DNA of 64,000 nucleotides from the human T2T-CHM13v2.0 reference genome, Homo sapiens, in assembly GCA_009914755.4 (NCBI GenBank), contig CP068257.2, forward strand, positions 8,832,001-8,896,000, given 5' to 3'. The notes beneath the pieces are model-generated. The model was not told where the DNA came from, did no database searches, and saw nothing but the letters and a program-made list of their open reading frames with translations. How positions within the stretch are numbered: position 1 is the first letter of the stretch; every line of letters starts with the position of its first letter. The position numbers were made by a program, and so were the translations under genes. Below, one piece after another: positions 1 through 47,065 of the stretch.

Positions 1-287
1 CCTAGGTTTTCCTCCAGGGTTTTCATGGTTTGAGGTCTAACGTTTAAGTCTTTAATCTGTCTTGAATTAATTTTTGTATAAGCTGTAAGAAAGGGATCCA
101 ATTTCAGCTTTCTACATGTGTCTAACCATTTTTCCCAGTACCATTTATTAAATAGGAAATCCTGTCCCCATTGCTTGTTTTTCTCAGGTTTGTAGAAGAT
201 CAGATAGTTGTAGACACGTGGCATTATTTCTGAGGGCTCTGTTCTGTTCCATTGACTATATCTCTGTTTTGGTAGCAGTACCATGCT
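1..287 (-). mobile_element. 5'-truncated LINE-1 fragment (ORF2 region, antisense on + strand); continues past the left window edge
   Basis: 1-287 aligns collinearly (about 90% identity by eye) to 40395-40690 of the full-length L1 in this same window, starting 'cctaggttttc.tc.agggttttt.atggttt.aggtctaac.tttaagtctttaatc'. The junction into alpha satellite lies at about 283-288 with 'atgct' microhomology (L1 'accatgctgtt' / alpha 'aatgcttctgt'). Same orientation as the downstream full-length L1. Confidence 0.8.
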
Positions 288-11300: not shown

Positions 11301-12195
11301 GCGCTTTGAGGCCTCTAGTGGAAAAGGTAATATCTTCACATAAAAACTGGACTGAAGAGTTGTGAGAAATTTCGTGGTGATGGGTGGGTTCATCTCATGG
11401 AGTTGAACCTTTTTTCTGATTGAGCAGTTTGGAAACACTCTTTTTGTAGAATCTGCAAGTGGACATTTCTCACGCTTTGCAGCCTATGGAAGAAAACTTA
11501 ATACCTTCACATAAAATCTAGACAGAAGCAATCTGAGAAACTTCTTTGTATTCTGTACATTCACCTCACAGTGTTAAACCATTCTTTTGATTGAGCAGTT
11601 TTGAAAGTATCTTTTGTAGAAACTGCAAGTGGACATTTGGAGTGCTTGGTGGCCTATGGTGGAAACGATAATATCTTCACATAAGAACTAGACAGGAGAA
11701 TGATGAGAAACTACTTTGTGAGGTGTGCGTTCATCTCACAGAGTTGAAACTTTCTTTTGATTGAGCAGTTTGGAACCACTCTTTTTGTCAAATCTGCAAG
11801 TGGACATTTGGAGCACTTAGCGGCCAATGGAAGAAAAGGCAATATCGTCACATAAAATCTAGACAGAAGCAATCTGAGAAACTTCTTTGTGATGTGTGCA
11901 TTCATCTCACAGAGTTAAACCTTTGTTTTGGTTGAGCAGTTTTGAAACTGTCTTTTAGTAGAATCTCCAAGTGGACATTTGGAGGGCTTTGAGGCCTACG
12001 GTGGAAAAGTAGATATCTTCACATAAAAAAATAGAGAGAAGAATTATGAGAAACTTCTTTGTGACGTTTGCGTTCATCTCACAGAGTTGAACCTTTCTTT
12101 TGATTGAGGAGTTCGGAAACACTCTTTTTGTAGAATCTGCAGGTGGACATTTTGAATACTTTGTGGCCTATGGTAGAAATGGAAATATCTTCATA
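8331..12195 (+). repeat. Alpha satellite block in consensus orientation, dimeric subfamily ('agaagaattctgagaaac' alternating with 'agaagcaatctgagaaac')
   Basis: The orientation flips at 8330/8331 within 'ccaccataggc|accattggagcgctttgcggcc'. The plus strand now reads 'cagttttgaaacactctttttgtagaatctgcaagtggacatttggagcgctttgaggcctatggtggaaaaggaaatatcttcacataaaa'. Two monomer types alternate (GAATTC-containing versus 'gcaatctg'). Confidence 0.9.
8430..8537 (+). repeat. 54-bp intra-monomer tandem duplication producing a ~225-bp monomer
   Basis: 'atctcacagagttaaacctttgttttgattgagcagttttgaaactctcttttc' (8430-8483) is followed directly by a near-identical copy at 8484-8537. The spacing between flanking 'cttctttgtgatgtgtgc' anchors is about 219-225 bp instead of 171. 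Confidence 0.7.
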
Positions 12196-15100
12196 TCACA
12201 AAGAGAGTGTTTCAAAACTGCTCAATCAAAAGAAAGGTTCAACTCTGTGTGATGAATGCACTCATCACAAAGAAGTTTCTCTGAATGCTTCTGTGTAGTA
12301 TTAATTTGAAGATGTTTCCGTTTCCACCATAGGGCACAAAGGGATCCAAATGTCCACTTCCACATTCTACAAAAACAGAGATTCTAAACAGCTCAATCAA
12401 AAGATAGGCTCAAATCTGTGAGTTGAATGCACACATCACAAAGAAGTTTCTCAGAATGCTTCTGTGTAGTTTTTATGTGAGGAAATTTGCTTTTCCACGG
12501 TAGGCTTCAAAGCACTCCAAATATCCAATTGCAGATTCTACAAAAACAGTGTTTCCAAAGTGCTCAATAAAGGAAAGGATCAATTCTGTGAAATGAATGA
12601 ACACATCACAAAGAAGTTTCTCAGAATGCTTCTGTGTATTTTTTGTTTGAAGATATTTCCTTTTCCACCTTAGGCCACAAAGGGCTCCAAATATCCACTT
12701 GCAGATTCTTCAAAAAGAGAGATTCAAAACTGCTCAATCAAAAGATAGGTTCAACTCTGTGAGTTGAATGCACACATCACAAAGAAGTTTCTCAGAATGC
12801 TTCTGTGTAGTATTTACGTGAAGATATTTCTTTTTCACAGTAGTACTCAAAATGTTCCAAATATCCACTTGCAGATTCTATAAAAAGAGTGCTTCAAAAC
12901 TGCTCAATCATAAGATACGTTCAACCCTGTGAGATGAATGCACACATCACAGAGAAGTTTCACAGAATGCTTCTGTGTAGTTTTTATTTGAAGATATTTC
13001 CTTTTCCACCATAGGCCGCAAAGTGCTCCAAATATCCACTTGCAGATTCTACAAAAAGAGAGGTTCAAAGGTGCTCAATCAAAAGATCGGTTCAACTTTT
13101 TGAATTGACTGCAAACATCACAAAGAAGTTTCTCAGAATGCGTCTGTGTAGTTTTTATGTGAAGATATTTCTTTTTCCACAATAGGCCACAAAGCTCTCC
13201 AAATATCAATATGTAGATTCTCCAAAAAGAGAGATTCCAAACTGCTCAATCAAAAGATAGCTTCAACTCTGTGATTTGAATGCACACCTCATGAAGAAGT
13301 TTCTCAGAATGCCTCTGTGTAGTCTTTATGTGAAGATATATGCTTTTCCACAGTACCCCTCAAAGCGCTCCAAATATCCATTTGCAGATTCTGCAAAAAG
13401 AGAGATTTGAAAGTGCTCAGTTCAAAGATAGGTGCAACTCTGTGAGTTGAATGCACAGATAACAACGACATTTCCCAGAATGCTTCTGTGTAGTTTTTAT
13501 GTGAAGATATTTCCTTTTCCAAAAGAGTCCTCAAAGCTCTCCAAATATCCACTTCCAGATTCTACAAAAAGATTTTTTCAAAACTACTCAATCAAAAGAA
13601 ATTGTCAACACTGTGTGATGAATGCACTCAACACAAAGAAGTTTCCCAGAATGCTTCTGTATAGTTTTTATTTGAAGATATTTCCTTTTCTACCATATGG
13701 CACAAAGGACTCCAAATATCCAGTTGCAGATTCTACAAAAAGAGAGATTCAAAACTGCTGAATCCAAAGATAGTTTCAACTGTGTGAGTTGAATGCACAC
13801 ATAACAAAGGAGTTTCTCAGAATGCTTCTGTGTAGTTTTTAGGTGAAGATATTTGATTTTTCACAGTACGCCTCAGAGAGCTCCAAATATCCACTTGCAG
13901 ATTCTGAAAAAAGAGAGATTCAAAACTGTTCAATCAAAAGATAGGTAAAACTCTGTGAGTTGATTGCACACATCACCAGGAAGTTTCTCTGAATAGTTCT
14001 GTGTAGTTTTTATGTGAAGATATTTTCTTTTCCAAAATATACCTCAAAGCCCTCCAAATATCCACTTCCAAATTCTACCAAAAGAGTGTTTCAAAACTTC
14101 TCAATCAATAGAAAGTTCAACTCTCTGTGATGAATACACTCATCACAAAGAAGTTTCTCTGCATGCTTCTGAGTAGTTTTATTTGAAGATATTTCCTTTT
14201 CCTCCATAAGGCACTAAGGGCTCCAAATATCCACGTGCAGATTCTAACAAAAGATAAATTCAAAACTGCTCAATCAAAATATAGGTTCAACTCTGTGAGT
14301 TGAATGCACATATCACAAAGAAGTTTCTCAGAATGCTTCTGTGTAGTTTTTATTTTGAGATATTTCCTTTTCCACAATAGACCTCAAATCTCTCCAAACA
14401 TCCACTTGCAGATTCTGCAAAAAGAGAGATTCAAGACTGCTCAATGAAAAGATAACCTCGACTCTGTCATTTGAATGCACACCTCACATAGTAGTTTCTC
14501 AGAATTCTTCTGTGTAGTTTTTATGTGAAGATATTTGCTTTTCCAAAGTAGGCCTCAAAGGGCTCAAAATCTCCCCTTGCAGATTCTGCAAAAAGAGAGA
14601 TTCCAAACTGCTCAATCAAAAGATAGGTTCACCTCTGTGTGACGAATGCACTCATCACAAAGAAGTTTCCCAGAATGCTTCTGTGTAGTTTTTATGTGAA
14701 GATATATCCTTTTCCACCCTAGGGCACATAGGGCTCCGGATATCCACTTGCAGATTCTACCAAAAGGGAGATTCAAAACTGCTGAGTCAAAAGATAGGTT
14801 CAATTCTGTGAGTTGAATGCACACATAACAAAGAAGTTTCGCAGAATGCTTCTGTGTAGTATTTATGTGAAGATATTTCCTTTTGCACAATAAGACTCAA
14901 ATCTCTCCTAATATCCACTTGCAGGTTCTACAAAAAGAGTGTTTCCAAACTGCTCAATCAAAAGAAAGCTTAAACTCTGTGAGATGAATGCACACATCAC
15001 AAAGAAGTTTCTCAGAATGCTTCTGTGTAGTTTTTATATGAAGATAATTGCTTTTCCTCAGTAGGCATCAAAGCACTCAAAACATCCAATTGCAGATTCT

Positions 15101-18100
15101 ACAAAAACAGTTTCAAAACTGCTCAATCAACAGAAGGGATCAACTCTGTGAGATGAGTGCACACATCATGAAGAAGTTTCTCATATTTCCTTTTCCACAA
15201 TAGGCCTCAAAGCACTCCAAATATCCACTTGCAGATTCTACAAAGAAGTGTTTCAAAACTTCTCAATCATAAGATAGGTTCAACCCTGTGAGATGAATGC
15301 ACACATCACAAAAAGTTTCTCAGAATGCTTCTGTGTAGTTTTTACGTGAAGACATTTCCTTTTCCATAATTGACCTGAAATCGCTCCAAATATCCTCTTG
15401 CAGATCCTACAAAAAGAGTGTTTCAAAACTGCTCAATCAAAAGAAAGGTTCAACTCTGTGAGGTGAATGCACACATCACAAAGAAGTTTTTCAGAATGCT
15501 TCTGTATAGTTTTTAGGTGGAAATATCTGCTTTTCCACAGTAGGCCTCAAAGGGCTCTATGTGTCCACTTGCAAATTAAACAAAAAGAGTTTTTCAAAAC
15601 TGCTCAATCATAATATAGGTTCAACCATGTGAGATGAATGCACACATGACAAAGAAGTTCCTCAAAATGCTTTTCTGTAGTTTTCATTTGAAGATATTTC
15701 CTTTTCCACCATAGGCCAGAAAGGGCTCCAAATATCCACTTGCAGATTCTACAAAAAGAGAGATTCAAAACTGCTCAATCAAAATATAGGTTCAACTCTG
15801 TGAGTTGAATGCACACATCACAAAGAAGCTTCTCAGAATGCTTCTGTGTAGTTTTTATTTGAAGATATTTCCTTTTCCACAATAGGCCTCAAATCGCTTC
15901 AAATATCCAATTGCAGATTGTACAAAAAGAGTGTTTCGAAACTACTAAATCAAAAGAAAGTTTCAACTCTATGAGATGAATGCACACATAGCAAATAAGT
16001 CTCTCAGAATGCTTCTGTGCAGTTTTCATGTGAAGATATTTGCTTTTCCACAGTAGGCCTCCAAGCGCTCCAAATATCCACTTGCAGATTCTACAAAAAG
16101 AAAGATTCAAAACTGCTCAATCAAAAGATCGGTTCAACTCTGTGAGTTGAATGCACACATCACAAAGAAGTTTCTCAGAATGCTTCTGTGTATTTTTTAT
16201 GTGAAGATATTTCCTTTTCCACAATAGGCCTCAAAGCTCTCCAAAGGTCCACTTGCAGATTCTGCAAAAAAAGAGATTCAAAACTGCTCAATCAAAGTAT
16301 AGGTTTGACTGTGTGAGTTGAATGCACACCTCAGAAAGAAGTTTCTCAGAATGCATCTGCATAGTTTTTATTTGAAGATATGTGCTTTTGCATTGTAGGC
16401 CTCAAAGCGCTACAGATATCCACTTTCAGATCTGCAAAACGAGAGATTCAAAACTGCTGAATCAAAAGAAACGTTCAACTGTTTCTGATGAATGCACTCA
16501 TCACAAAGAAGTTTCTTTGAATGCTTCTGTGTAGTTTTTATTTGAAGATATTTTCTTTTCAATCATAGGGCAAAAAGGGCTACAAGTATCCACTTGCGGA
16601 TTATTCAAAAAAAGAGATTGAAAACTGCTCAGTCATAAGATAGGTTCAATCCTGTGTGATGAATGCACACATCACAAAGAAGTTTTTCAGAATGCTTCTG
16701 TGTAGTTTTTAGGTGAAGATACTTCCTTTTCCACAATAGGCCTGAAATCGCTCCAAATATCCACTTGTAGATTCTACAAAAAGTGTGTTTCAAAACTGCT
16801 CAATCAAAAGAAAGGTTCAACTCTGTGAGTTGAATGCACACATCACAGAGAGGTTTCTCAGAATGCTTCTGTGAAGTTTTTATATGAAGATATTTGATTT
16901 TCCACAGTTGGCCTCACAGTGCTCCAAATATCCACTTTTAGTTTCTGCAAAATGAGAGATTCAAAACTGCTCAATAAAAAGAAACGTTCAACTCTGTGTG
17001 ATGAATGCACTCATCACAAACAAGTTTCTCTGAATGCTTCTGTGTTGTTTGTATTTGAAGATATTTCCTTTTCCACCATAGGGCGCAAATGGCTCCAAAT
17101 ATCCACTTGCAGATTCTACAGAAAGAGAGATTCAAAACTGCTCAATGAAAAGATAAGTTCAACTCTGTGAGTTGTATGCACATATCACAAAGAAGTTTCT
17201 CAGAATGCTTCTGTGTAGTTTTTATGTGAAGACATTTTCTTTTCCACCATAGGCCACAAAGGGCTCCAATTATCCACTTACAAAAAGAGTGTTTCAAAAC
17301 TGCTCAATCAAAAGAAAGGTTCAACTCTGTGAGATGAATGCACACATTACAAACAAGTTTCTCAGAATGCTACTGTGTAGTTTTATATGAATATATTTGC
17401 TTTTCCATGGTAGGCCTCAAAGCGCTCCAAATATTCATTTTCAGATTCTACAAAAAGAGTGTTTCAAAACTGCTCAATCATAAGATAGGTTTAACCCTGT
17501 GTGATGAATGCACATATCACAAAGATGTTTCTCAGAATGCTTCTGTGTAGTTTTTATGTGGAGATATTTCCTTATCCACAATAGGCTGCAACGGGCTCCA
17601 AATATCCACTTGCAGATTCTACAAAAGCAGAGATTCAAAACTGCTCAATCAAAAGATAGGTTCCAATCTGTGAGTTAAATGCACACATCACTAAGAAGTT
17701 TCCCAGAATGCTTCTGTGTATTTTTTATTGGAAGATATATCCTTTTCCACAACAGGCTTCAAACTCTCCAAATATCCACTTGCAGATTCTGCAAAAAGAC
17801 TGTTTCAAAACTGCTCAATAAAAAGAAATGTTCAACTATGTGTGATCAACGCACTCATCACAAATTACTTTCTCTGAGTGCTTCTGTGTAGTTTTTATTT
17901 GAAGATATTTCCTTTTTCACCACAGGGGGCAAAGGGCTCCAAATATCCACTTGCAGATTCTATAAAAAGAGAGATTCAAAACTGCTCAATAGAAAGATAG
18001 GTTCAACTCTGTGAGTTGAATGTACACATCACAAAGAAGTTTCTCAGAATGCTTTTGTGTAGTTTTTATGTGAAGATATTTCCTATACCACAATAGGCCT

Positions 18101-21083
18101 CAAATCGCTCCAAATATTCACTTGCTGATTCTACAAAAAGAATGTTTCAAAACTGCTCAATCAAAAGAAAGGTTCACCCTTGTGAGATGAAGGCACACAT
18201 CACAAAGAAGTTTCTCAGAATGCTTCTGTGTATTTTTTATGGGAAGATATTTCCTTTCCCAAACTAGGCCTCAAATAGCTCCAAATATCCACGTGCAGAT
18301 TCTACAAAAAGAGTGTTTCAAAACTGCTCTATCAAAAGAAAGGTTCAACTCTGTGAGATGAATGCAAACAAAACAAAGAAGTTTCTGAGAATTCTTCTGT
18401 GTAGTTATATGAAGATATATCCTTTTCCACAATAGGCCTCAAAGCATTCCACATATCCACTTACAGATTCTACAAAAAGAGTGTTTCAAACTGCTCAATC
18501 CAATGAAAGGTTCAACTCTGTGAGATAAATGCACACATAACAAAGAAATTTCTCAGAATTCTTCTGTGTAGTTTCTATGGGAAGATATTACCCTTACCAC
18601 CATCGGCCACAAAGAGCTCCAAATAACCACTTGCAGCTTGTACAAAAAGAGAGTTTCAAAACTGCTCCCAAGAGATAGGTTCAAATCTGCGAGTTGAATG
18701 CACACATCACAGAGAAGTTTCTCAGAATGCTTCTGTGTAGTTTTTATTTGAAGATATTTCCTTTTCCACCATAGGCTGCAAAGGGCTCCAGATATCCACT
18801 TTCAGATTCTACAAAAGGAGAGTCTTAAAACTGCCCTATCAAAAGAGTGGTAAAACTCTATGAGATGAAGGCACACATTACAAAGAAGTTTCTCAGAATG
18901 CTTCTGTGTAGTTTTTATGTAAAGATTTTTCCTTTTCCACTATAGGCCTCAAAACATTCCAAATATCCACTTGCAGATTCTACAAAAAGTGTGTTTCAAA
19001 ACTGCTCTATCAAAAGAAAGTTTCAACTCTGTGAGATGAATGCACACATCAGAAAGAATTTTCTCAGAATGCTTCTGTCTAGTTTTTATGTAAAGATATT
19101 TCCTTTTCCACCATAGGCCTGAAAGGGCTCCAAATATCCACTTGCAGATTCTACAAAAAGAGAGTTTAAAAACTGCTCTATCAAATGAAGGGTTCAGCTC
19201 TGTGAGATGAATGCACACATCACAAAATAGTTTCTCAGAATGCTTCTGTGTAGTTTTTATGGGAAGATATTTCCTTTTCCACCTTTGGCCACAAAGGTCT
19301 CCAAATAAACACTTGCAGATTCAACAAAAAGAGTGTTTCAAAACCTCTCTATCAAAAGATAGATTCAACTCAGTGAGTTGAAGGCACACATTCACAATGA
19401 AGTTTCTCAGAATGCTTCTGTGTAGGTTTTATGTGATGATTTTTCCTTTTCCACCATAGGCCCCAAATCACTTCAAATATCCACTTGCAGATTCTACAAA
19501 AAGAGAGTTTCGAAACTGCTCTATAAAAATATTGGTTCAGCCTGTTGAGATGAAGGCACACATCACAAAGAAGTTTCTCAGAATGCTTCTGTATGCTTTT
19601 TATGTGAAGACGTTTCCTTTCCCTCCATAGGTCTCAAAGCCCTCCAAATATCTAATTGCAGATTCTACAAAAAGAATGTTTCCAAACTGCTGTATCAAAA
19701 TAAAGACTCAAGTCTGTGAGATGAATGCACACATCAAAAAGAAGTTTCTCAGAATGCTTCTGTGTAGTTTTTATGTGAAGACATTTACTTTTCCACAATA
19801 GGCCTCAAACGGCTCCAAATATCCCCTTGTAGATTATACAAAGAGAGTGGTTCCAAACTGCTGATTCAATGGAAACGTTCAACTCTGCGACATGAATGCA
19901 CACATCCCAAAGAAGTTTCTGAGAATGCTTCTGTGCAGATTTTATGTGAAGGTATTTCATTTTCCAGAACAGGGCTCAAAGTGCTACAAATATCCACTTG
20001 CAGATTCTACAAAAAGAGTGTTTCAAAACTACTCAATCAAAGTAAGTTTCAACTCTGTGAGATGAATGCACACATCACAAAGAAGTTTGTCAAAATGCTT
20101 CGACCTAGTTTTTATGTGAAGATATTTCCTTTTCCACCTTAGGCCTGCACAATGAAAAGTGCACAATGAAAAGTAAGTTTCAACTCTGTGAGATGAAAGC
20201 ACACATCACGAAAAAGTTTGTCAGAATGCTTCTGTCTACTTTTTGTTTGAAGATATTTCCTTTTCCACCTTAGGCCTAAAAGTGCTCCAAATGTCCACTT
20301 GCAGATTCTACAAAAAGAGAGTTTCAAAGCTGCTCAATGAAAAGAAAGTTTCTACTCTCTGAGATGAATGCACACATCACAAAAAAGTTTGTCAGAATGC
20401 ATCTGTCTAGTTTTTATGTAAAGATACTTCCTTTTCCACCACAGCCCCCAAAGCGCTCCAAATATCCACTTGCAGATTCTACAGAAAGAGTGTTTGAAAA
20501 CTGATCAATGAAAAGTAAGGTTCAACTCTGTACGATGAATGCACACATCACAAAGAAGTTTGTCAGAATGCTTTGGTCTAGTTTTTATATGAAGATATTT
20601 CCTTTTCCACCATAGGCCTCAAAGTGTGAAAAATGTCCATTCCAGATTCTACAGAAAGAGTGTTTCCAATCTGTTCAATGAAATGGAGGGTTCAACTCTG
20701 TGAGATGAATGCACACATCAAAAAGAAGTTTGTCAGAATGCTTCTGTCCCATTATTACATGAAAATATTTCGTTGTCCACCATAGGCCTCAAAGCGCTCC
20801 AAATGTCAACTTGCAGATTCTACAAAAAGCGTGTTTCAAAGCTGCTCAATCAAAAGGAAGTTTTAACTCTGTGAGATGATTGCACATGTCACAAAGAAGT
20901 TTGTCAGAACGCTTCTGTTTAGTTTTTATGTGAAGATATTTCCTTTTCCACCATAGTCCTCAAAGCGCTCCAAATGTCCACTTGTAGATTCTACAAAAAG
21001 AGTGTTTTAAAACTGCTCCATGAAAAGAAATGTTCAACACAGTAAGATGGAGGCATATATCGCAAAGAAGTTTGTCAGAATGT
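12196..21083 (-). repeat. Alpha satellite, divergent A-type monomers (~52), same orientation and subfamily look as 288-8330
   Basis: The orientation switches back at about 12196 ('ggaaatatcttcatat|cacaaagagagtgtttcaaaactgctc'). The motif 'ctcagaatgcttctgtgtagtttttatgtgaagatatttcc' recurs at 171-bp periodicity. Confidence 0.9.
20000..21083 (-). repeat. Sub-block of alpha monomers carrying 'gtttgtcagaatgcttctgtctag' (same subfamily as 21084-25600 but opposite strand)
   Basis: 'aagtttgtcagaatgc' replaces 'aagtttctcagaatgc' in consecutive monomers at about 20090, 20215, 20390, 20560, 20730, 20900 and 21070. It is the reverse complement of the 'gcattctgacaaacttc' signature seen across the 21084 junction. 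Confidence 0.75.
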
Positions 21084-24000
21084 TTTGAAACACCGTTTTT
21101 GTAGAATCTGCAAGTGGATATTTGGAGCACTATGAGGCCTATCGCGGAAAAGGAAATGTCTTCACATGAAAACTAGACAGAAGCATTCTGACAAACTTCT
21201 TTGTGATGTGTGCATTCATCTCACAGTGCTGAAACTTGCTTTCAATTGAGCAGTTTTGAAACACTCTTTTTGAAGTATCTGCAAGTGGACATTTGGAGCG
21301 CTTTGAGGCCCATAGTGGGAAAGGAAATATCTTCACATAAAAACCAGACAGATGCATTCTGACAATTTTCTTTGTGATATGTGCATTGATCTCACAGAGT
21401 TGAATCTTACTTTTCATTGAGCAGTTTTGAACCACTCTTTTTGTAGAATCTGCAATTGGATATTTAGAGCACTTTGAGGCCTATGATGGAAAAGGAAATA
21501 TCTTCACATAAAAACGAGACAGAAGCATTCTGACAAACTTCTTTTGATATGTGCATTCATCTCACAGAGATGAAACTTTCTTTTGATTGAGCAGCTTTTA
21601 AACATTCTTTTTGTAGAATCTGCAAGTGGACAATTTGAGCGCTTTGAGGCCTATGGTGGAAATGGAAATATCTTCATATAAAAACTAGACATAAGCATTC
21701 AGAAAAAGTTTTCTGTGATGTGTGCATTCACCTCAAAGTGCTGAACCTTACTTTCAATGGAGCAGCTTTGAAACACTCTTTTTGTAGAATTTGCAAGTGG
21801 ACATTGGAGAGCTTTGAGGCCTATGGGTGGACAAAGAAATATCTTCATATAATAACTAGACGGAAGCATTATGAGAAACTTCTTTGTGATGTGTGCATTC
21901 ATCTCACACAGAGTTGAACCTTTCTTTGGAATGAGCAGCTTTGAAACACTCTTTTTGTAGAATCTGCAAGTGGACATGTGGAGCACTTTGAGGCCCATTG
22001 TGGAAAAGGAAATATCTTCATATAAAACTAGACAGAAGCTTTCTGACAAACTTCTTTGTGATGTGTGCATTCAGCTCACAAAGTTGAACATTTCTTTTCA
22101 TTGAACAGCTTTGAAACATTCTTTTTGTTGAATCTGCAAGTGGACATTTGGAGCGATTTGTAGCCTATTGTGGAAAAGGACATATCATCAAATAAAAACT
22201 AGACATACACATTCTGACAAACTTCTTTGTGATGTGTGCATTCATCTCACAGAGTTGAATCTTTCTTTTCATTGAACAGCTTTGAAACACTCTTTTTGTA
22301 GAATCTGCAAGTGGACATTTGCTGCGCTTTGGGGCCAAAGTTGGAAAAGGAAGTATCTTCACTTAAAAACTAGACAGAAGCCTTCTGACAAACTTCTTTG
22401 TGATGTGGGCATTCACCTCACAGATTTGAACCTTGCTTTTCATTGAGCAGCTTTGAAACACTCTTTTTGTAGAATCTGCAAATGGACATTTGGAGCGATT
22501 TGCGGCCAGTGCTGGAAAGCGAAATATTTTCACAAAAAACCTGACAGAAGCATTGACAAACTTCTTTGTTATGTGTGCATTCATCTCACAGGGTTGAACT
22601 TTTCTTTTGATTGAGCAGCTTTGAAACACTCTTTTTGTAGAATCTGTAAGTGGACATTCGGTGCGCTTTGAGGTCTATGGTTGAAAAAGAAACATCTTCA
22701 CATAAAAACTAGACAGCAGCATTCTGACAAAAAACATTGTGATGTGTGCATTCATCTCACAGAGTAGAAACTTACTTTCATTGAGCAGTTTTTAAACACT
22801 CTTTTTCTAGAATCTGCAAGTGGACTTTTGGAGCCCTTTGAGGCCTATATTGGAAAAGAAAATATCTTCACATAAACACTAGACAGAAGCATTCTGACAA
22901 ACTACTTTGTGATGTGTGCATTCATCTAACACAGTTGAACTTTCTTCTGACCGAGCAGCTTTGAAACACTCTTTTTGTAGAATCTGCAAGTGGACATTTT
23001 GAGCGCTGGAGTCCAATCGTGGAAAAGGAAATATCGTCATATAAAAAGTAGACAGAATCATTCTGACAATCTTCTGTGTGAAGTCTGCATTCATCTCACA
23101 GAATAGAACCTTTCTTTTGATTGAGCAGCTTTGAAACACTCTTTATGTACAATCTGTAAGTGGACATTTGGAGCTCTTTGAGGCCTATGATGGAAAAGGA
23201 AATATCTTCACATAAAAACTAGGCAGACGTATTCTGACCAACATCTTTGTGATATGTGCATTCTTCTCACAGAGTTGAACCTTACTTTTGATTGAGCAGT
23301 TTTGACACACTCTTTTAGTAGAATCTGCAAGTGGATATTTTGAGTGCTTTGAGAGCCAATGGTGGAAAAGGAAACATCTTCACATAAAACCTACACAGAA
23401 ACATTCTGACAAAGTACTTTGTGATGTGTGCATTCATCTCACAAAGTTAAACATTTCTTTTGATTGAGCAGCTTTGAAACACTCTTTTTGTAGAATCTGC
23501 AAGGGGACATTTGGAGCGCTTTGAAGCCAATGTTGTAAAAGAAAATATCTACACATAAAAGCTAGACAGAAGCTTTCTGAAAAACTTCTTTTTGATGTGT
23601 GCATTCATCTCACAGAGTTGAACCTCTCTTTTGATTGAGGAGCTTTGAAACACTCTTTTTGTACAATCTGCAAGGACCATTTGGAGCACTTTGACGGCTA
23701 TGGTGGAAAAGGACTATCTTCACTTAAAAACTAGACAGAAGCATTATGACAAACTTCTTTTTGATACGTGCATTCATATCACAGAGTTGAACTTTCTTTT
23801 AATTGAGCAGTTTTCAAACACTCCTTGTGTAGAATCTGCAAGTGGACATTTGGAGCCCTTTGGGGCCTATGGTGGAAAAGGAAATATTTTCACATAAAAA
23901 CTAGACAGAGGCATTCTAATAAACTTCTTTTTGATGTGTGCATTCATATCACAGAGTTGAACATTACTTTTGATTGAGCAGTTTGGAAAATTTCTTTTTG

Positions 24001-25600
24001 TAGAATCTGCAAGTGGACATTTGGAGCACTTTGAGCCCTATGATAGAAAAGGAAATATGTTCACATAACTAGACAGAAGCATTCTGACAACCTTCTTTGT
24101 GATGTGTGCATTCATCTAACAGAGATGAACCTTACTTTTCATTGAGAAGTTTTGAGACACACTTTTTGTAAAATCTGCAAGTGGACATTGGGAGCATTTT
24201 GCGACCAATGGTGGAAAAGGAAAATCTTCACATAAAAACTAGACAGAAGCATTCTGTTAAACTTCTTTGTGATGTGTGCATTCGCCTCCCAGAGTGGAAC
24301 CTTACTTTTCACTGAGCAGTTTTCGAACACTCTTTTTGTGGAATCTGCATACGGATATTTAGTGCTCTTTGAGGCCTATGATGAAAAAGGAAATATCTTC
24401 ACATAAAAACCGGACAGAAGCATTCTGACACACTTCTTGGTGATGGGTGCATTCAGCTCACAGGGTTGAACCTTTCTTTTGATTGAGCAGCTTTGAAACA
24501 CTTTTTTTTTTTTTAGAATCGGCAAGTGGATATTTGGAGCGGTTTGAGGCCTATGGTGGAAAAGGAAATATCTTCACATAAAAACTGGACAGAAGCATTC
24601 TCACAAACTGCTTTGTGATGTGTGCATTCATCTCACAAAGTTGAAACTTTCTTTTGATTGAGCAGCTTTGAAACACTCTTTGTAGAGTCTGCAAGTGGAC
24701 ATTTGGAGCACTTTGAGGCCTACAGTGGAAAAGGAAATACCTTCACATAAAAATTAGACAGAAGGATTCTGAGAAACTTCTTTGTGATGTGTGCATTCAT
24801 CTCACAGAGTTGAACCTTACTTTTCATTGAGCAGTTTTGAAACACTCTTTTTGTAGAATCTGCAAGTGGACATTTGGAGAACTTTGAGGCCTGTGGTGTA
24901 AAAGGAAATATCTTCACATAAAAACTAGACAGAAGCATTCTGACAAACGTCTTTGTGATGTGTGCTTTCATCTCACAGAGTTGAACATTTCTTTTGATTT
25001 AGCAGCTTTGAAACACTCTTTTTGTAGAATCTGCTGTTGGACATTTGCGGCACTTCAAGCCAATGGTAGAAAAGGAAATACCTTCACATAGAAAGTAGAT
25101 AGAGCCAGTCTTACAAACTTCTTTGTGATGTGTGCATTCATCTCACAGTATTGAACCTTTCTTTTGATTGAGCAGCTTTGAAACCCTCTTTTTGCAGAAT
25201 CTGCAAGTGGACATTTGGAGCGCCTTGTGGACTATTGTAGAATAAGGAATATCTTCACATAAAAACTAGACAGGAGCATTCTGACAAACTTCTTAGTGAT
25301 ATGTGCATTCATCTTGCATCATTGAACCTCCCCTTTGATGGAGTAGTTCTGAAACTGTCTTTTTGTAGAATCTGCATGTGGAGATTTTGAGAGCTTTTAG
25401 GCCTATGTTGCAAAAGGAAATATCTTCATATAGAAACTAGACAGAAGCATTCTGACAACCTTCTTTCTGACATGTGCATTCATCTCACAGAGTTGAACTT
25501 TCCTTTTTATGGACCAGTTTTGAAATACTCTTTTTGTAGAATGTGTAAGTGGACATTTAGAGCATCTCGAGGCCTATGGTGGAAAATGAAATATCTTCAC
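21084..25600 (+). repeat. Alpha satellite, consensus orientation, 'agaagcattctgacaaacttctttgtgatgtgtgcattcatctcacag' subfamily
   Basis: The strand switch lies at about 21083/21084 ('aagtttgtcagaatg|ttttgaaacaccgtttttgtagaatctgcaagtgg'). 'cattctgacaaac' recurs every ~171 bp up to about 25440. Confidence 0.85.
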
Positions 25601-28600
25601 ATAAAACTAGACAGAAGAATTCTGAGTGAGAAACTTCTTTGTGATGTGTGCGTTCATCTCACAGAGTTGAACCTTTCTTTTGATTGAGCAGTTTGCAAAC
25701 ACAATTTTTGTAGATTCTGCAAGTGGACATTTGGAGTGCTTTGCGGCCTATGGTAGAAAAGGAAATATCCTCACATAAAACCTAGACAGAAGCAATGTGA
25801 GAAACTTCTTTTTGATTTGTGCATTCATCTCACAGAGTTAAACATTTCTTTTGATTGAGCAGTTTTGAAACACTCCTTTTGTGGAATCTGCAAGTGGACA
25901 TTTGGAGGGCTTTGAGGCCTATGGTAGAAAAGGAAATATCTTCACATAAAATCTAGACAGAAGCAATCTGAGAAACATCTTTGTGATGTATGCATTCATC
26001 TCACAGAGTTAAACCCTTCTTTGTTTGAGCAGTTTTGAAAATCTTTTTTTATAGAATCTGCAAGAGGACATTTTGAGGGCTTTGAGGCCTTTGGTGAAAA
26101 AGGAAATATCTTCACATAAAACTAGACAGAAGAATTCTGAGAAACTTCTTTGTGATGTGTGCATTCATCTCACAGAGTTGAACCTTTCTTTTGATTGAGC
26201 AGTTTGGAAACACAATTTTTATAGATTCTGCAAGTGGACATTTGGAGCACTTTGCGGCCTATGGTAGAAAAGGAAATATCTTCACATAAAACCTAAACAG
26301 AAGCAATGTGAGAAACTTCTTTGTGATGTGTGTATTCATCTCACAGAGGTAACCCTTTCTTTCAATAGAGCAGTTTAGAAATGCTCTTTTTGTAGGATCT
26401 GCAAGTGGACATTTGGAGCGCATTTAGTCCTGTGGTGGAAAAGAAAATATCTTCACATAAGTACTAGACAGAAGAATTCTGAGAAACTTATTTGTGATGT
26501 GTGCATTCATCTCACAGAGCTGAACCTTTCTTTTGATTGAGCAGTTTGGAAACACTCTTTTTGTGGAATCTGCAAGTGGTCATTTGGAGCGCTTTGCGGC
26601 CTAAGATAGAAAAGCAATAACTTCACATAAAATCTAGACAGAAGCAATCTGAGAAACTTCTTTGTGATGTGTCCATTCATACCACAGAGTTAAAACTTTC
26701 TTTTGATTGAGGAGTTTTGAAACTCCCTTTTTGTAGAATCTGCTCATGGACACTTGGAGGGCTTTGAGGCCTATTGTGGAAAAGGAAATATCTTCACATA
26801 AAAACTAGACAGAAGAATTCTGAGAAACTTCTTTTTGATATGTACGTTCTTCTCACAGAGTTGAATCTTTCTTTTGATTGAGCAGTTTTGAAACTCTCTT
26901 TTTGTAGAATCTGCAAGTGGACATTTGGAGCGCTTTGAGGCCTATGGTGGAAAAGGAAATATCTTCACGTAAAAACTAGATAGAAGCATTCTGAGAAACT
27001 GCTTTGTGATGCGTGCATTCATCTCCCAGAGTTGAACGTTTCTTTTGATGGACCAGTTTTGAAATACTCTTTTTGTATAATCTGCAAGTGGACATTTCGA
27101 GCGCTTTGTCTCCTATTGTGAAAAAGGAAATATCTTCACTTAAAATCTAGACAGAAGCAATCTGAGAAACTTCTTTTTGATGTGTGCGTTCATCTCACAG
27201 AGTTAAAACTTTCTTTTGATTGAACAGTTTTGAAAATCTCTTTTTGTAGTATCTGTAAGTGGACATTTGGAGTGCTTTGAGGCCAATGGTAGAAAAGGAA
27301 ATCACTTCACATAAAAACTAGACAGAAGAATTCTGAGAAACTTATTTGTGATGTGTCCATTCATCTCACAGAGTTGAACCTTTCTTTTGTTTGAGCAGTA
27401 TGGAAACACCCTTTTGGTAGAATCTGCAGGTTGACATTTGACGTCCTTTGAGGCCTTGGTTGAAAAGGAAATATCCTCACATAAAATCCAGACAGAAGCA
27501 ATCTGGGAACCTTCTTTGTGATGTGTGCATTCATCTCCCAGAGTTAAACCTTTCTTCTGATTGAGCAGTTTTGAAACTGTCTTTTTGTAGAATCTTCAAG
27601 TGAACATTTGGAGTGCATTTAGTCCTGTGGTGGAAAAGAAAATATCTTCACATAAAAACTAGACAGAAGAATTCTGGGAAACTTCTTTTATAAGCGTGCA
27701 TTCATCTCACAGAGTTGAAGCTTTCTTTTGATTGAGCAGTTTGGAAACACTCTTTTTGTAGTATCTGCAAGTGGACATTTGGAGTGCTTTGCGGCCTGCG
27801 ATAGAAAAGGAAATATCTTCACATAAAATCTGGAGAGAAGCAATCTGAAAAACTTCTTTGTGATGTGTGCCTTCATCTCAAAGAATTAAACCTTTCTTTT
27901 GATTGAGTAGTTTTGAAACACACTTTTTGTGGAGTCTGCTAATGGACATTTGGAAGGCTTTGAGGCCTATGGTGGAAAAGGAAATATCTTCACATAAAAA
28001 GTAGACAGAAGAATTCTGAGAAACTTCTTTGTTACATGTGCGTTCATTTCACAGAGTTGTACCTTTCTTTTGATTGAGCAGTTTGGAAACACTCTATTTG
28101 TAGAATCTGCAAGTGGACATTTGGAGCGCTTTATGGTAGAAAAGGTAATATCTTTACATAAAATCTAGACAAAAGCAAACTGAGAAACTACTTTCTGATG
28201 TGTGCATTCATCTCACAGTGTTAAACCTTTCTTTTGATTGAGGAGTTTTGTAGCTCTCTTTTTGTAGAATCTGCAAGTGGACATTTGGAGAGCTTTGGGG
28301 CCTATCGTGGAGAAGAAAATATCTTCACATAAAAACTAGACAGAAGAATTTTGAGAACCTTCTTTGTGATGCGTGGGTTCATCTCACAGAGGTCTATGGT
28401 AGAAAAGGAAATATCTTCACTTAAAATCTAGACAGAAGCAATTGGAGAAACTTCTTTGTGATGCGTGCATTCATCTCACAGAGTTAAACCTTTCTTTTAA
28501 TTGAGCAGTTTTTAAACTCTCTTTTTGTAGAATGTGCAAGTGGACATTTGAGGCGCTTTGTGGCCTATGGTAGAAAAGAAAATATCTTCACATATCTAGA

Positions 28601-29000
28601 CAGAAGCAATCTGAGAAACTTCTTTGTAATCTGTGCATTCTTCTCACAGAGTTAAGCCTTTCTTTTGATTGAGGAGTTTTGTAACTCTCTTTTTGTAGAA
28701 TGTGCAAGTGGACATTTGTGCCACTTTGAGGCCTATGGTGGAAAAGGAAATATCTCCACATAAAAACTAGACAGAAGAATTCTGAGAAACTTCTATCCAA
28801 TGTGTGCATTCATCTCACAGAGTTGAACATTTCTTTTGATAGAGCAGTTTTGAAACACTCTTTTTGTAGAATCTGCAAGTGGATATTTGGAGCCCTCTGA
28901 GTCCTATTGTGGAAAAGGAAATATCTTCACATAAAAACTAGAGAGAAGCATTCTTAGAAACTACTTTGTGATGTGTCCATTCATCTCATGGAGTTGAAAC
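25600..29000 (+). repeat. Alpha satellite, dimeric 'gaattctgagaaac/gcaatctgagaaac' subfamily (same family and orientation as 8331-12195)
   Basis: 'agaagaattctgagaaac' alternates with 'agaagcaatctgagaaac' (25610, 25790, 25960, 26130 and onward). The type-specific downstream motifs match those in 8331-12195 ('gagttaaacctttc...ttgaggagttttgaaactctc' versus 'gagttgaac...cagtttggaaacactc'). Confidence 0.8.
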
Positions 29001-30449
29001 TTTCTTTTGATTAAGCAGTTTGGTAACAGTATTTTTGTAGCATCTGCAAAGGTATAATTGTGATTCCTTTATGGCCTATGGTTAAATAGGAAATATCTTC
29101 ACATAAAAACTAAACAGTAGCTTTCTGAGAAACTTCTCTGTGGTGTGTGATTTCATCTCACAGAGTTGAACAATTCCTTCAATTGAGAAGGTTGGAAATA
29201 GTCTTTTTGTACAACCTGCAAATGGATATTTGCTGCTCTTTGAGGCCAATGGTGAAAAAGGAAATATCTTCACATAAAAATTAGACGGAAGCATTCTGAA
29301 AAACTTCTTTGTGACGTTTGCATTCATCTCACACAGTTGAACATTTCTTTGATCGGAGATTTGGAAACAGTCTTTTTGTAAACTCTACAAAGGGATAATT
29401 GTGAACCCTTTTAGGCCTATGGTGAAGTAGGAAATATCTTCATATAAAAACTACACAGAAACATTCTGAGAAAGTTTTTTGTGATGGGTGCATTCATCTC
29501 ACAGAGTTGAAGCTTTCTTTTGCTAGAGCAGTTTGGAAACAGTCCTTTGTAGAATCCCCAAAGGGATAATTCTGAGCCTATTGAGGCCTTTGGTGATGTA
29601 GGAAATATCTTCACATAAAAGCTAGACAGAAGCTTTCTGAGAAACTTCTTTTAAATGAGTGCTTTCATCTCAAAGAGTTGAGCATTTCTTTTGACTGAGA
29701 AGTTTGGAAACACACTCTTTTCAGAATCTGCAAATGGATAATTGGAGCACATTGAGGCCTATAGTGAAAAAGCAAATATCTTCACATAAAAACTAAACAG
29801 AAGCTTTCTGAGAAACTACTTTGTAATGCGTGCATTCATCTTACAGAGTTTAACCTTTCTTTTGATTGAGCAGTTTTGAAACTCTCTTTTTGTGGAATCT
29901 GCAAGTGGACACTTGGAGTGCTTTGACTTCTATGGTGGAAAGGGAAATATCTTCACATAAAAACGAGAGAGAAGCATTCTGAGAAACTTCTTTTTGATGT
30001 GTGCATTCAGCTCACAGAGTTATATCTTTCTTTTGGTTGAACAGTTTTGAAACTCTGTTTTTGTAGAGTCTGCAGGTGGACATTTTGAGCGTTTTGAGGT
30101 CTATGTTGGAAAAGGAAATATCTTCACATAAAAACTAGACAGAAGCACTCTGAGAAACTTCTTTGTGATGTGTGCATTCATCTCACAGAGTTGAACCTCA
30201 CTTTTGATTGAGCAGTTTGGAAACACTCTTTTTCTTGAATCTGCAAGTGGACATTTGGCACGCATTGTGAACAATGGCAGAAATGGAAATATCTTCACTT
30301 AAAATCTAGACAGAAGCAATCAGAGAAACTTCTTTGTGATGTGTGCATTCATCTCACAGAGTTAAAAGTTTCTTTTGATTAAGCAGTTTTGAAACTGCCT
30401 TTTTGTAGAATCTGCAAGTGGATATTTGGAGCGCTTTGAGGTCTGTGTT

Positions 30450-33400
30450 GGAAAAGGAAATATCTTCACGTAAAAACTAGACACAAGCATTCTCAGAAAC
30501 TTTTCTGTGACGTGTGCATTAAACTCACAGAGTTCAACATTTCTTTTGATAGAGCAGTTTTGAAACACTCAATTTGAAGAATCTGCAAGTGGACATTTTG
30601 AGCGCTTTGAGGCCTATGGTGAAAAAGGAAATATCTTCACATAAAAATTAGACAGAAGCATTCTCAGAAACTTCTTTGTGATATTTGCATTCAACTCACA
30701 GAGTTGAACATTCCCTTACATAGAGAAGTTTTGAAACAGTCTTTTTGTAGAATCTGCAAATGTATATGTGGAGCTCTTTGAGGCCTTCGGTGGAAACGGG
30801 AAATTCTTCACATAAGAGCAAGACAAGCACTCTCAGAAACTTTTTTGTGATGTGGTACATTCAACTCACAGAGTTGAACCTTCCTTTTAATAGAGCAGTT
30901 TTGAAACACTCTATTTGTGGAATCTGCAAGTGAACAATTGGAGCACTTTGAGGCCTGTGGTGGAAAAGGAAATATCTTCACATTAAAACTAGACAGAAGC
31001 ATTCTCAGAAACTTCTTTGTGATGTGTGCATTCAATTCAGAGAGTTAAACCAACCTTTTGATAGAGCAGTTTTGAAACACTGCTTTTGTAGAATCTGCAA
31101 CTGGATATATGGAGCCCTTTGAGGCCTATGGTAGAAAAGGAAATGTCTTCATATAAAAACTAGACAGAAGCATTCTCAGAAATTTCTTTGTGATGTGGCA
31201 TTCAAGTCACAGAGTTGGACCATCCTCTTCATAGAGCAGTTTTGAAACAGTCTTTTTGTAGAATCTGCAAGTGGATATTTGGAGCGTTTGGAGGCCTATG
31301 GTGGAAAAGGAAATATCTTCACATAAAGAGTAGAAAGAAGCATTCTCAGAAACTCCTTTGCTATGTGTCCATTAAACTCAGAGTGCTGAACCTTCCTTTT
31401 GATAGAGCAGTTTTGAAACACTCTTTTTGTAGAATCTGCAAGTGGACATTTGGAGCGCTTTGAGGTATATGGTAGAAAAGGAAATATCTTCATATAAAAA
31501 CTAGACAGAAGCATTCTCAGAAACTAATTTATGATGTGTGCATTCAACTCAGACGGTTGAAACATTCTTTTGATAGAGCAGTTTTGAAAAGCTCTTTTTG
31601 TAGACTCTGCAAGTGGATAGTTGGAGTGCTTTGAGGCCTAAGCTGGAAACGGGAATATCTTCACATAAAAACTAGACAGAAGCATACTTAGAAACTTCTT
31701 TGTGATGTTTGCATTCAACTCAGAGAGTTGAACTTTCCTTTTGATGGAACAGTTTTGAAATACTCTTTTTGTAGAATCTGCAATTGGATATTTGGAGCGA
31801 TTTGAGTCCTATGGTAGAAAACGAAATATCTTCATATAAAAACTAGACACAGGTATTCTCAGAAACTGCATTGTGATGTTTGAATACAACTCACAGAGTT
31901 GAAAATTTCTTTTGATAGAGCAGTTTTGAAACACACTTTTTGTAGAATCTGCAAGTGGATATGTGGAGCTCTTTCAGGCCTATGGTAGAAGGGGAATACC
32001 TTCACATAAAAAAGAGACAGAAGCATTCTCTGAAACTTCTTTGTGATGTGTCCATTCAACTCAGAGAGTTGAACCTTACTTTTGATAGAGTAGTTTTGAA
32101 ACACTCTTTTTGTAGAATCTGCATGGGAATATTTGGAGTGCTTTTAAGTCTGAGGTAGAAAAAAATATCTTCATATAAAATCTACACAAAAGCATTCTCA
32201 GAAACTTCTTTGTGATGTGTGCACTCAAGTCACAGTGTTGAACATCTCTTTTGATAGAGTAGCTTTGAAACACTCTTTTTGTACAATCTGAATGTGGACA
32301 TTTGGGGAGCTTTGAGGCCTGTGGTAGAAAAGGAAATATCTTCACATAAAAACAACACAGAAGTATTCTGAGGAACTGCTTTTTGATGTGTGCATTCAAC
32401 TCACAGAGTTGAACCTTTCTTTGATAGAGCAGTTTTGAAACACTCTTTTTGTAGAATCTGCAAGTGGACATTTGGAGCGCTTTAAGGTCTGTGTCGGAAA
32501 ACGCAATATATTCACATAAAAACTAGACAGAAACATTCTCAGAAACTTCTTGGTGACGTGTGCATTCAACTCACAGAGTTGAACCTTTCTTTTGATAGAG
32601 CAGTTTTGGAGCACGCTTTTTGTAGAATCTGCAAGTGGACATTTGGAGTGCTTTGAGGCCTGTGGTGGAAAAGGAAATATCTTCACATAAAAACTAGGCA
32701 GAAGCATTCTCAGAAACTTCTTTGTGATGTGTCCATTCAACTCACAGAGTTGAAACTTTTATTTGATAGAGCAGTTTTTAAAAACTCTTATTGAAGAATC
32801 CGCAAGTGGATATTTGGAGCGCTATGAGGCCTATGATGGAAAAAAAATTATCCTCACATGAAAACCAGACAGAAGCATTCTCAGAAACTTTTTTGTGTTG
32901 TGTGTATTCAACTCACACAGTTAAACATTTCTTTTGGTAGAAGAGGTTTGAAACACTCTTTTTGTAGAAGGTGGAAGTGGATATTAGGAGCGCTTTGAGG
33001 ACTATATTGGAAAAGGAAATATCTTCACAAAAAACCAGACAGAAGCATTCTCAGAAACCTCTTTGTGATGTGTGTATACAACTCACAGAGTTGAACCTTT
33101 CTTTTCATTGAGCAGTTTTCAAATACTCTTTTTGTAGAAACTGCAAGTGGATATTTGGATAGTTTGAAGCCTATGGTGGAAAAGGAAATATCCTCACAAA
33201 AAAAAACAGACAGAAGGATTCTCAGAAAATTCCTTGTGTTGTTTGTATTCAACCCACAGAGTTTAAACTTTTCTTTGATTGGGCAGTTTTGAAACACTCT
33301 TTTTCTAGAATCTGTAGGTGGATATTTGGAGTGCTTCGATGACTACGGGAGAAGAGGAAATGTCTTCACATAAAAACTAGACAGAAGCATTCTCAGAAAC

Positions 33401-39279: not shown

Positions 39280-39511
39280 CCTTTTTTTATTTTCATTTAT
39301 TTATTATTATTGTACTTCAAGTTTTAGGGTACATGTGAACAATGTGCAGGTTAGTTACATATGTATACATGTGACATGCTGGTGCGCTGCAACCACTAAC
39401 TCGTCATCTAACATTAGTTATATCTCGCAATGCTATCCCTCCCCCCTCCCCCCACCCAAACAGGCCCTAGTGTGTGATGTTCCCCTTCCTGTGTCCATGT
39501 GTTCTCATTGT

Positions 39512-43370
<3,859 letters not shown>

Positions 43371-43483
43371 TTAGTTGATGCAGTTTCTTCCTAGTCTCGA
43401 TGGTCTTTACATTTTGGCATGATTTTGCAGCAGCTGGTACTGGTTGTTCCTTTCCATGTTTAGCGTTTCATTCAGGAGCTCTT

Positions 43484-45323: not shown

Positions 45324-45349
45324 TCTGTCTAGTTTTTATGTGAAGATAT

Positions 45350-45366
45350 TCCCGTTTAAAACGAAG
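45350..45366 (-). promoter_or_regulatory. CENP-B box (matches the minimal nTTCGnnnnAnnCGGGn, read on the minus strand)
   Basis: Plus strand 't cccg tt t aaaa cgaa g' fits nCCCGnnTnnnnCGAAn, in the first monomer after the L1. Confidence 0.55.
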
Positions 45367-46369: not shown

Positions 46370-46386
46370 TCCCGTTTCCAACGAAG
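46370..46386 (-). promoter_or_regulatory. CENP-B box (intact core)
   Basis: Plus strand 'tcccgtttccaacgaag'. Confidence 0.7.
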
Positions 46387-47048: not shown

Positions 47049-47065
47049 TTCCCGTTTTCAACGAA
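47049..47065 (-). promoter_or_regulatory. CENP-B box (intact core)
   Basis: Plus strand 'tcccgttttcaacgaag'. Confidence 0.65.

What the first reader, a model, noticed from the sequence alone, without database searches (positions are those of the whole stretch)
19990..25600. Inversion junction inside a single alpha subfamily (inverted-repeat arms around 21083/21084)
Left-arm monomers (20000-21083) carry 'aagtttgtcagaatgcttctgtctag'. That is the exact reverse complement of the 'agaagcattctgacaaacttc' signature of the right arm (21084-25600). The same subfamily therefore abuts itself in opposite orientations, with no spacer. The arms meet out of register: the left arm ends after 'cagaatg' and the right arm begins at 'ttttgaaacac', about 80 bp apart in monomer phase. 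It is therefore an inversion breakpoint, not a perfect palindrome. Such a structure could form hairpins and is a classic breakpoint signature in pericentromeres.
Basis: seen in the sequence. Interest (0 to 1): 0.5.

Follow-up and report, generated by a model that had tools for sequence, protein, structure and literature searches.

The report
Strand switch inside monomeric alpha satellite
Two runs of the same variant of primate centromeric alpha-satellite repeat really do meet head-to-head here, but this is an ordinary old inversion scar of a kind already catalogued in large numbers next to human centromeres.

Summary
The window is divergent monomeric alpha satellite (171-bp monomers, about 80% pairwise identity). 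Its orientation blocks run -, +, -, +, [L1], -. It is joined, with no spacer and at most 1 nt of microhomology, to a plus-strand monomer starting at position 69.

Both sides belong to one monomer class. The marker G9>C (CTGACAAA) is present in 6/6 left monomers (19928-21082) and 20/26 right monomers (21083-25617), and in 0/299 elsewhere. Cross-arm identity (82.6%) equals within-arm identity and exceeds identity to other monomers (79.5%).

The arms are not mirror copies. Every monomer register gives 83-85%, and the classes further out differ between the two arms. An independent metagenome contig (99.3% identical, 19 substitutions) spans the junction, so it is not an assembly artefact.

The best reading is an old, neutral scar of non-homologous rejoining, formed after this class had amplified. 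Its partner breakpoint may lie at about 12200. A fold-back origin cannot be excluded.

Strand switches in divergent alpha satellite are well documented, so novelty is nil and interest low.

The parts
19928..21082 (-). Left arm of class c: 7 alpha monomers on the minus strand. One (20097-20228) carries an internal deletion. The outermost (19928-20096) is an a/c hybrid.
   Evidence: Position 9 = C in 6/6 full monomers; TTTGTCAG 6 times; nhmmer strand '-'.
21082..21083 (.). Head-to-head junction. Minus-strand monomer position 1 is joined to plus-strand monomer position 69. There is no filler, and at most 1 nt (G21082) could belong to either side.
   Evidence: Sequence read; nhmmer hit ends; the 30-mer across the junction is unique in the window; identical over +-36 nt in independent contig L001.
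21083..25617 (+). Right arm of class c: one partial monomer (21083-21183, positions 69-171) plus 26 full monomers on the plus strand.
   Evidence: Position 9 = C in 20/26 and position 71 = C in about 60%; CTGACAAA 10 times.
12197..19927 (-). Class a monomers (position 164 = C) that continue the minus-strand block outward from the left arm. They are the same class as block A (286-8329).
12196..12205 (.). Next strand switch to the left (b+ | a-), the candidate partner breakpoint of the junction. The plus monomer ends at positions 155-164 and the minus monomer starts at positions 83-92, with about 10 nt of ambiguous overlap.
   Evidence: A clean reciprocal inversion predicts phases 171 and 68. 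The observed phases are off by 7-16 and 15-24 nt, a fit about as good as chance would give 5% of the time (my own estimate).
25628..30486 (+). Class b (dimeric; position 1 deleted, position 107 = C) following class c on the right arm. It is the same class and orientation as block B (8330-12196).
19928..20228 (-). In-register a/c class boundary. It comprises a hybrid monomer (position 9 = C with position 164 = C) and the neighbouring monomer, which has an internal deletion and a 14-bp tandem duplication.
   Evidence: The boundary is also present in independent contig L001.

Best explanation
This is a genuine, germline, old strand switch (inversion junction) inside one monomer class of divergent monomeric alpha satellite, most likely in a human pericentromere. 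Shown: two class-c monomers are joined head-to-head, position 1 to position 69, with no filler and at most 1 nt of microhomology. Class c carries a derived marker on both sides. The arms are no more alike in mirror register than in any other register. An independent assembly has the same junction. Inferred: class c first amplified as a co-oriented tandem array. Later a double-strand-break rearrangement rejoined ends non-homologously (NHEJ-like, not recombination between inverted repeats). The junction has since persisted as a neutral scar with no function. The most economical specific history is a two-break inversion of 12197-21082. Undoing it makes 8330-39278 co-oriented, with class order b-c-a-c-b-d, which would bring the two c flanks together. 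I give that specific partner assignment only about 0.4. The confidence given here is for the general statement (a real, old, non-homologous strand-switch scar).
For: Strand change and absence of a spacer: with the GC-skew flip. Same class on both sides. No mirror register. By contrast, duplications of 91-95% identity are readily detected elsewhere in the window (7546-8329 ~ 17993-18776), so a duplication across the junction of that age or younger would have been seen. Independent contig OUNP010001738.1 spans 18859-21575 at 99.3% with 19 substitutions and no indels. The junction is one of four strand switches in 58 kb of alpha satellite. This matches published statements that diverged alpha satellites contain many inversions (10.1101/2021.07.12.452052, citing Rudd and Willard 2004) and that about 89.6% of alpha-satellite strand switches lie in monomeric regions (10.64898/2026.07.22.740206). 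Mirror-symmetric layers of monomer classes are an established pattern (PMC2729386). That makes the c-a-c arrangement required by the two-break model plausible.
Against: The two-break model puts both breakpoints exactly on class borders (b|c and a|c) at one-monomer resolution, which random breaks would rarely do. Monomer phases at 12196-12205 fit the reciprocal prediction only approximately. Identity does not decay with distance within these arrays, so former neighbours cannot be recognised. The a/c hybrid monomer shows that homologous recombination later remodelled the left arm and may have deleted informative sequence. The species and chromosome were not determined. The independent contig is a short-read metagenome contig of unknown provenance.
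Confidence: 0.82

Rival explanations
1. Relic of a fold-back (inverted) duplication. A break in the class-c array was repaired by the end folding back or switching template and copying its own array in reverse. This gave mirror arms with a 68-95 nt loop. The arms later diverged, and the left arm was truncated to 1.15 kb by in-register recombination with the class-a array.
For: A fold-back directly predicts the same class on both sides of a head-to-head junction. The a/c hybrid monomer shows a later in-register recombination that could have truncated the left arm. The four closest registers (spacers 68-443 nt) score marginally higher (84.7-85.0%) than more distant ones (83-84%). A second junction in the window (8329|8330) is almost in phase, as fold-backs are.
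Against: No mirror register stands out. Cross-arm identity equals identity between any two class-c monomers, so the duplication would have to be about as old as the class itself. Going outward, the arms differ in class order (c then a on the left, c then b on the right). At least two further events are needed to reach the present layout.
Confidence: 0.25
2. Complex event. An 8.9-kb segment (a- c-) from elsewhere in the pericentromere was inserted or copied in reverse orientation next to the resident class-c array, for example by multi-step template switching or by repair with a captured fragment.
For: Both ends of the minus block 12197-21082 coincide with class borders. Segments of class a have been duplicated within the window. 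Four strand switches and two L1 junctions without normal insertion hallmarks point to repeated complex rearrangement here.
Against: It requires the coincidence that the inserted segment ended in class c exactly where the resident class-c array began. No donor copy of higher identity is seen in the window.
Confidence: 0.12
3. Assembly artefact: a mis-join of two alpha-satellite reads or contigs in opposite orientation.
For: Satellite arrays are prone to mis-assembly. One contaminant contig (L008) ends 3 nt past the junction.
Against: An independently assembled contig from a different haplotype (19 substitutions) crosses the junction, with 2.2 kb on one side and 0.5 kb on the other, and is identical over +-36 nt around it.
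Confidence: 0.02

Closest known systems
Strand switches (inversion breakpoints) in divergent or monomeric alpha satellite, as quantified in T2T-CHM13 and in pangenome centromere surveys
   Same: Adjacent 171-bp monomers change strand with no spacer. The setting is about 80%-identity monomeric alpha satellite with L1 insertions, and there are several switches within tens of kb. The literature describes exactly this (10.1101/2021.07.12.452052; 10.64898/2026.07.22.740206).
   Different: Nothing substantive. The only particular feature is that this switch lies inside one monomer class, whereas two other switches in the window (8329|8330 and 12196-12205) coincide with class borders.
Mirror-symmetric layers of old alpha-satellite classes around a centromere core (Shepelev et al. 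2009, PMC2729386; layered expansion model)
   Same: After undoing the inversion of 12197-21082, the class order is b-c-a-c-b, with all blocks co-oriented.
   Different: Published layers span tens to hundreds of kb on opposite chromosome arms. Here the pattern spans 30 kb, depends on my own class definitions, and requires inversion breakpoints exactly on class borders.
Fold-back inversions / inverted duplications with a short spacer (breakage-fusion-bridge or template-switch products)
   Same: Head-to-head junction of like sequence, with an apparent 68-95 nt loop between the arms.
   Different: Arms are only about 85% identical, with no privileged register. Outward class order differs between the arms.

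Membership tests
Primate alpha satellite | Tandem monomers of about 171 bp matching the alpha consensus | tested here: met
   343 nhmmer hits to a 171-bp consensus, modal length 171. TRF gives period 171 and 81% matches in 45324-64000. The consensus was written from memory, but the window's own consensus agrees with it.
Monomeric / divergent alpha satellite (not a homogeneous HOR array) | Neighbouring monomers about 70-85% identical, with no high-identity higher-order period | tested here: met
   Mean pairwise identity is 0.78-0.83 in all blocks. Identity in block D1 is flat across lags 1-15. Only block E shows a decayed 20-22-monomer period, at 0.865.
Monomeric / divergent alpha satellite | Assignment to a named suprachromosomal family or monomer class (SF4-SF18 HMMs) | not testable with these tools
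   No SF HMM library or human reference is available. A text search for the class-c signature in papers and in supplements found nothing.
Inversion breakpoint (strand switch) in a satellite array | Adjacent repeat units on opposite strands, directly abutting | tested here: met
Inversion breakpoint (strand switch) in a satellite array | Junction reproducible in an independent assembly | tested here: met
   L001 = OUNP010001738.1, 99.3% identity over 2717 bp across the junction.
Two-break reciprocal inversion | A partner breakpoint whose two sides are complementary in phase and content to this one | tested here: inconclusive
   The candidate at 12196-12205 has phases 155-164 and 83-92, against predicted 171 and 68. 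Adjacency cannot be tested by similarity because identity shows no distance decay.
Palindrome / recent inverted duplication | Arms that are mirror copies with higher identity in one register than the background between monomers | tested here: not met
   Diagonal means are flat. All registers give 83-85%. Cross-arm identity equals within-arm identity.
NAHR-mediated inversion | Breakpoints inside a pair of inverted high-identity repeats, giving in-register hybrid repeats | tested here: not met
   The junction is 68 nt out of register with at most 1 nt of microhomology. There are no inverted repeats of at least 90% identity and more than 350 bp in 1-39300.

The most novel reading that the evidence does not exclude
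The 30-kb stretch 8330-39278 may preserve, in miniature, a mirror-symmetric set of alpha-satellite layers (d-b-c-a-c-b-d') around a small defunct core of class a, later scrambled by two nested inversions whose breakpoints all fall on layer borders. Alternatively, the c|c and d|L1|d' junctions may be relics of ancient fold-back events in an ancestral centromere. Either reading would imply that layer borders, or fold-backs, are preferred sites of breakage in decaying centromeric arrays.
Probability: 0.12. Interest if true: 0.35.

Novelty: already known. Interest (0 to 1): 0.12.

Why it matters
It matters little on its own. It is a well-resolved example of a strand switch in monomeric alpha satellite, with base-pair breakpoint anatomy (position 1 joined to position 69, blunt) and class context. 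Such junctions are useful as unique markers for mapping reads in satellite DNA, and as cladistic characters for dating pericentromeric rearrangements across apes. If many such junctions proved to lie on or within class borders non-randomly, that would bear on how dead centromere layers decay. One junction cannot show that.

Tried and rejected
1. Mirror-register test for an inverted duplication. The monomer-by-monomer matrix and diagonal means and BLAST registers show no privileged register. One 252-bp, 90% inverted hit (20776-21027 against 21410-21660) is within what many comparisons would produce by chance.
2. Average-linkage clustering of monomers only peeled off outliers. It was replaced by diagnostic columns and by PCA with k-means.
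3. Former neighbours cannot be inferred from similarity, because identity does not decay with distance within blocks.
4. An outer inversion of 8330-39278 (or 8330-45323) was checked by monomer phase at 8329|8330 and at 39278/45324. The phases do not fit, so it gets no support.
5. Scans of genome contigs: the 24-mer found nothing. The 19-mer gave 6 hits in bacterial MAGs with no alpha monomers, about the number expected by chance.
6. Exact-protein look-ups of spurious ORFs near the junction, used to fish out more contaminant contigs. Four found nothing. One found two short contigs that do not cross the junction.
7. Naming the monomer class from the literature: no paper or supplement contains the signature.
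8. Block B as a recent copy of D2: the best hits are not colinear and are at most 90% identical, so it shares the class only.
Full report
**What the window is.** A scan with a 171-bp alpha-satellite consensus finds 343 monomers covering all of the window except 1-285 and 39279-45323. The monomers are 78-83% identical to one another. This is therefore divergent, monomeric primate alpha satellite, not a homogeneous higher-order array. The orientation blocks are:

| Block | Coordinates | Strand |
|---|---|---|
| A | 286-8329 | - |
| B | 8330-12196 | + |
| C | 12197-21082 | - |
| D | 21083-39278 | + |
| L1 | 39279-45323 | - |
| E | 45324-64000 | - |

The L1 is full-length (6045 bp) and has Pfam hits for the ORF1 RBD, endonuclease and reverse transcriptase domains. 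GC skew changes sign at the same places. The junction in the finding is thus one of four strand switches in about 58 kb of alpha satellite.

**Checking the observation.**
- Read directly, the left arm ends '...gtttgtcagaatg' at 21082 and the right arm begins 'ttttgaaacaccg...' at 21083.
- In consensus numbering, the minus-strand monomer 20912-21082 ends at position 1 and the plus-strand partial monomer 21083-21183 starts at position 69.
- There is no filler, and only G21082 could belong to either side.
Copies with 1-3 mismatches occur there every 171 bp, and every copy with at most 1 mismatch, on either strand, lies within 20214-25462.

**Same subfamily?** Yes. I aligned 331 full monomers in a common orientation and found block-specific columns.
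- Class c is defined by G9>C (CTGACAAA), with T71>C as a second, partial marker.
- Position 9 = C occurs in 6/6 monomers of 19928-21082, in 20/26 of 21083-25617, and in 0/299 others.
- Mean identity is 0.826 left to right, 0.822 left to left, 0.826 right to right and 0.795 left to other.
- The left arm is closer to the right arm than to any of 248 other contiguous 26-monomer blocks (maximum 0.809). This remains true without the marker column.
- PCA of variable columns puts the two arms together.

**Other classes.**
- Class a (position 164 = C) comprises block A and 12197-19927.
- Class b (dimeric, position 1 deleted, position 107 = C) comprises block B and 25628-30486.
- Class d (position 7 = C, 36 = A, 64 = A) comprises 30488-39278 and one of the two alternating monomer types of E.

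The layout is therefore a- b+ a- c- | c+ b+ d+ [L1] d'-.

**Not a palindrome and not a recent inverted duplication.**
- The monomer-by-monomer matrix across the junction has no elevated anti-diagonal.
- The reverse-complemented right arm aligns to 20160-21082 at 83-85% in every monomer register.
- Duplications of 91-95% identity are readily seen elsewhere in the window (7546-8329 ~ 17993-18776 and 7506-7781 ~ 19315-19592). A duplication across the junction of comparable or younger age would have been detected.
- Going outward, the arms also differ: c then a on the left, c then b on the right.
- The left c-to-a transition is in register, inside a hybrid monomer (19928-20096: position 9 = C with position 164 = C). 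Next to it is a monomer with an internal deletion. Homologous recombination has therefore remodelled that arm since it formed.

**Is the junction real?** An exact 24-mer across the junction found one metagenome contig, OUNP010001738.1. Over its whole 2717 bp it matches window 18859-21575 at 99.3%, with 19 substitutions and no indels. It is identical for 36 nt on either side of the junction, and it also contains the a/c boundary. The substitutions show that it comes from another haplotype, so the junction is not an artefact of the source assembly. Two further contaminant contigs (99.7-99.8%) cover the right arm only. This level of identity to contaminants in metagenomes suggests that the window is human. 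I could not test that.

**Hairpin potential.** As single-stranded DNA, 300 nt centred on the junction fold to -69.7 kcal/mol (z = -10 against shuffles). A control 300 nt from the same array gives -27.4 (z = +0.6). With 85% arms and a 68-95 nt loop I do not expect cruciform extrusion in duplex DNA (inference).

**How it arose.** What is shown:
- the join is blunt and out of register;
- the marker of class c is on both sides, so class c amplified before the event;
- the arms carry no trace of mirror copying.

An out-of-register join with at most 1 nt of microhomology indicates non-homologous end joining, not recombination between inverted repeats (established knowledge). A uniformly oriented array has no inverted repeats to recombine.

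A two-break inversion puts like next to like only if the class lay on both sides of the inverted segment. Undoing an inversion of 12197-21082 gives b+ c+ a+ c+ b+ d+, co-oriented and mirror-symmetric in class. That is the pattern expected from layered expansion (PMC2729386; 10.1101/2021.07.12.452052). This is the most economical history for 8330-39278, needing one event. There are three weaknesses:
- It places both breaks exactly on class borders.
- Phases at 12196-12205 (155-164 and 83-92) match the prediction (171 and 68) only to within 7-24 nt, which chance would allow about 5% of the time.
- Similarity cannot reveal former neighbours, because identity does not decay with distance.

A fold-back duplication, later truncated at the a/c hybrid monomer, remains possible. 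It would have to be as old as class c itself and needs more subsequent events. I rate a two-break inversion with its partner at about 12200 at about 0.4, a fold-back relic at about 0.25, another complex event at about 0.12, and an artefact at about 0.02. The remainder goes to a two-break inversion with a different, unidentified partner. In every reading the junction is a neutral scar.

[quoted passage not shown] A 2026 survey of thousands of centromeres reports that about 89.6% of alpha-satellite strand switches lie in monomeric regions (10.64898/2026.07.22.740206). This finding is an instance of that known kind. I could not name the suprachromosomal family of class c, because no HMM library or human reference was available and literature searches were empty.

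**Verdict.** The feature is already known and of low interest. The only mildly unusual point is that the switch lies within a monomer class, unlike the 8329|8330 and 12196-12205 switches, which sit on class borders. Comparative ape and pangenome alignments would settle the mechanism and the age.

Noticed in passing
window 8329-8330 (context 8280-8520): A second strand switch, a(-)|b(+), that is almost in phase: the minus arm ends near position 124 and the plus arm restarts near position 105. It gives the strongest hairpin potential in the window (300 nt, -82.9 kcal/mol, z = -15). It is followed by a roughly 40-55 nt partial-monomer duplication (8427-8470 and 8482-8520).
   Followed up: partly
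window 12196-12205: A third strand switch, b(+)|a(-), with about 10 nt that align to either arm. It is the candidate partner breakpoint of the junction in the finding.
   Followed up: partly
window 39279-45323: A full-length 6045-bp L1 on the minus strand (ORF1 RBD, endonuclease and RT domains; ORF2 broken into pieces; L1PA-type 5' end GAGCCAAGATGGCCG). It sits exactly on a fourth strand switch: the left flank is alpha (+) ending at position 87 and the right flank is alpha (-) starting at about position 170. There is no target-site duplication. The 3' (poly-A) junction looks like normal insertion, so the anomalous join is at the L1 5' end.
   Followed up: partly
window 1-285: Non-alpha sequence that reads like a fragment from near the 3' end of L1 ORF2 (recognised from memory, not tested). 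It joins alpha (-) at 285/286 with no poly(A) and possibly about 5 nt of microhomology (ATGCT), which would make it another rearrangement junction.
   Followed up: no
window 45324-64000: Block E is a dimeric alpha array (two alternating monomer types, one of them like the monomers of 30488-39278). It has a decayed higher-order period of 20-22 monomers: a 3395-bp self-alignment at 87%, and lag-20 identity of 0.865 against a background of about 0.817. This suggests a divergent HOR.
   Followed up: partly
window 8622-12205 and 25965-28777: Class b is strictly dimeric (A/T alternation at position 3; lag-2 identity 0.84 against lag-1 0.795). It occurs twice in the same orientation, once embedded in the minus-strand class-a array and once to the right of class c.
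   Followed up: partly
window 7506-8329 vs 17993-18776 and 19315-19592: Direct paralogy of 91-95% between the right end of block A, which runs right up to the 8329|8330 junction, and two places near the right end of the class-a part of block C. This indicates a later segmental duplication within class a.
   Followed up: no
window 19928-20228: An a/c hybrid monomer (position 9 = C with position 164 = C), followed by a monomer lacking about 40-60 nt and carrying a 14-bp tandem duplication (gcacaatgaaaagt twice). It marks an in-register recombinant class border 1 kb from the junction and is also present in the independent contig L001.
   Followed up: partly
L001 (OUNP010001738.1), L008 (JGI 3300014625 Ga0134321_101364), L009 (ERZ772770 NODE_52822): Metagenome assemblies contain contigs 99.3-99.8% identical to this alpha-satellite window, presumably host (human) contamination. 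L008 stops 3 nt beyond the junction.
   Followed up: partly
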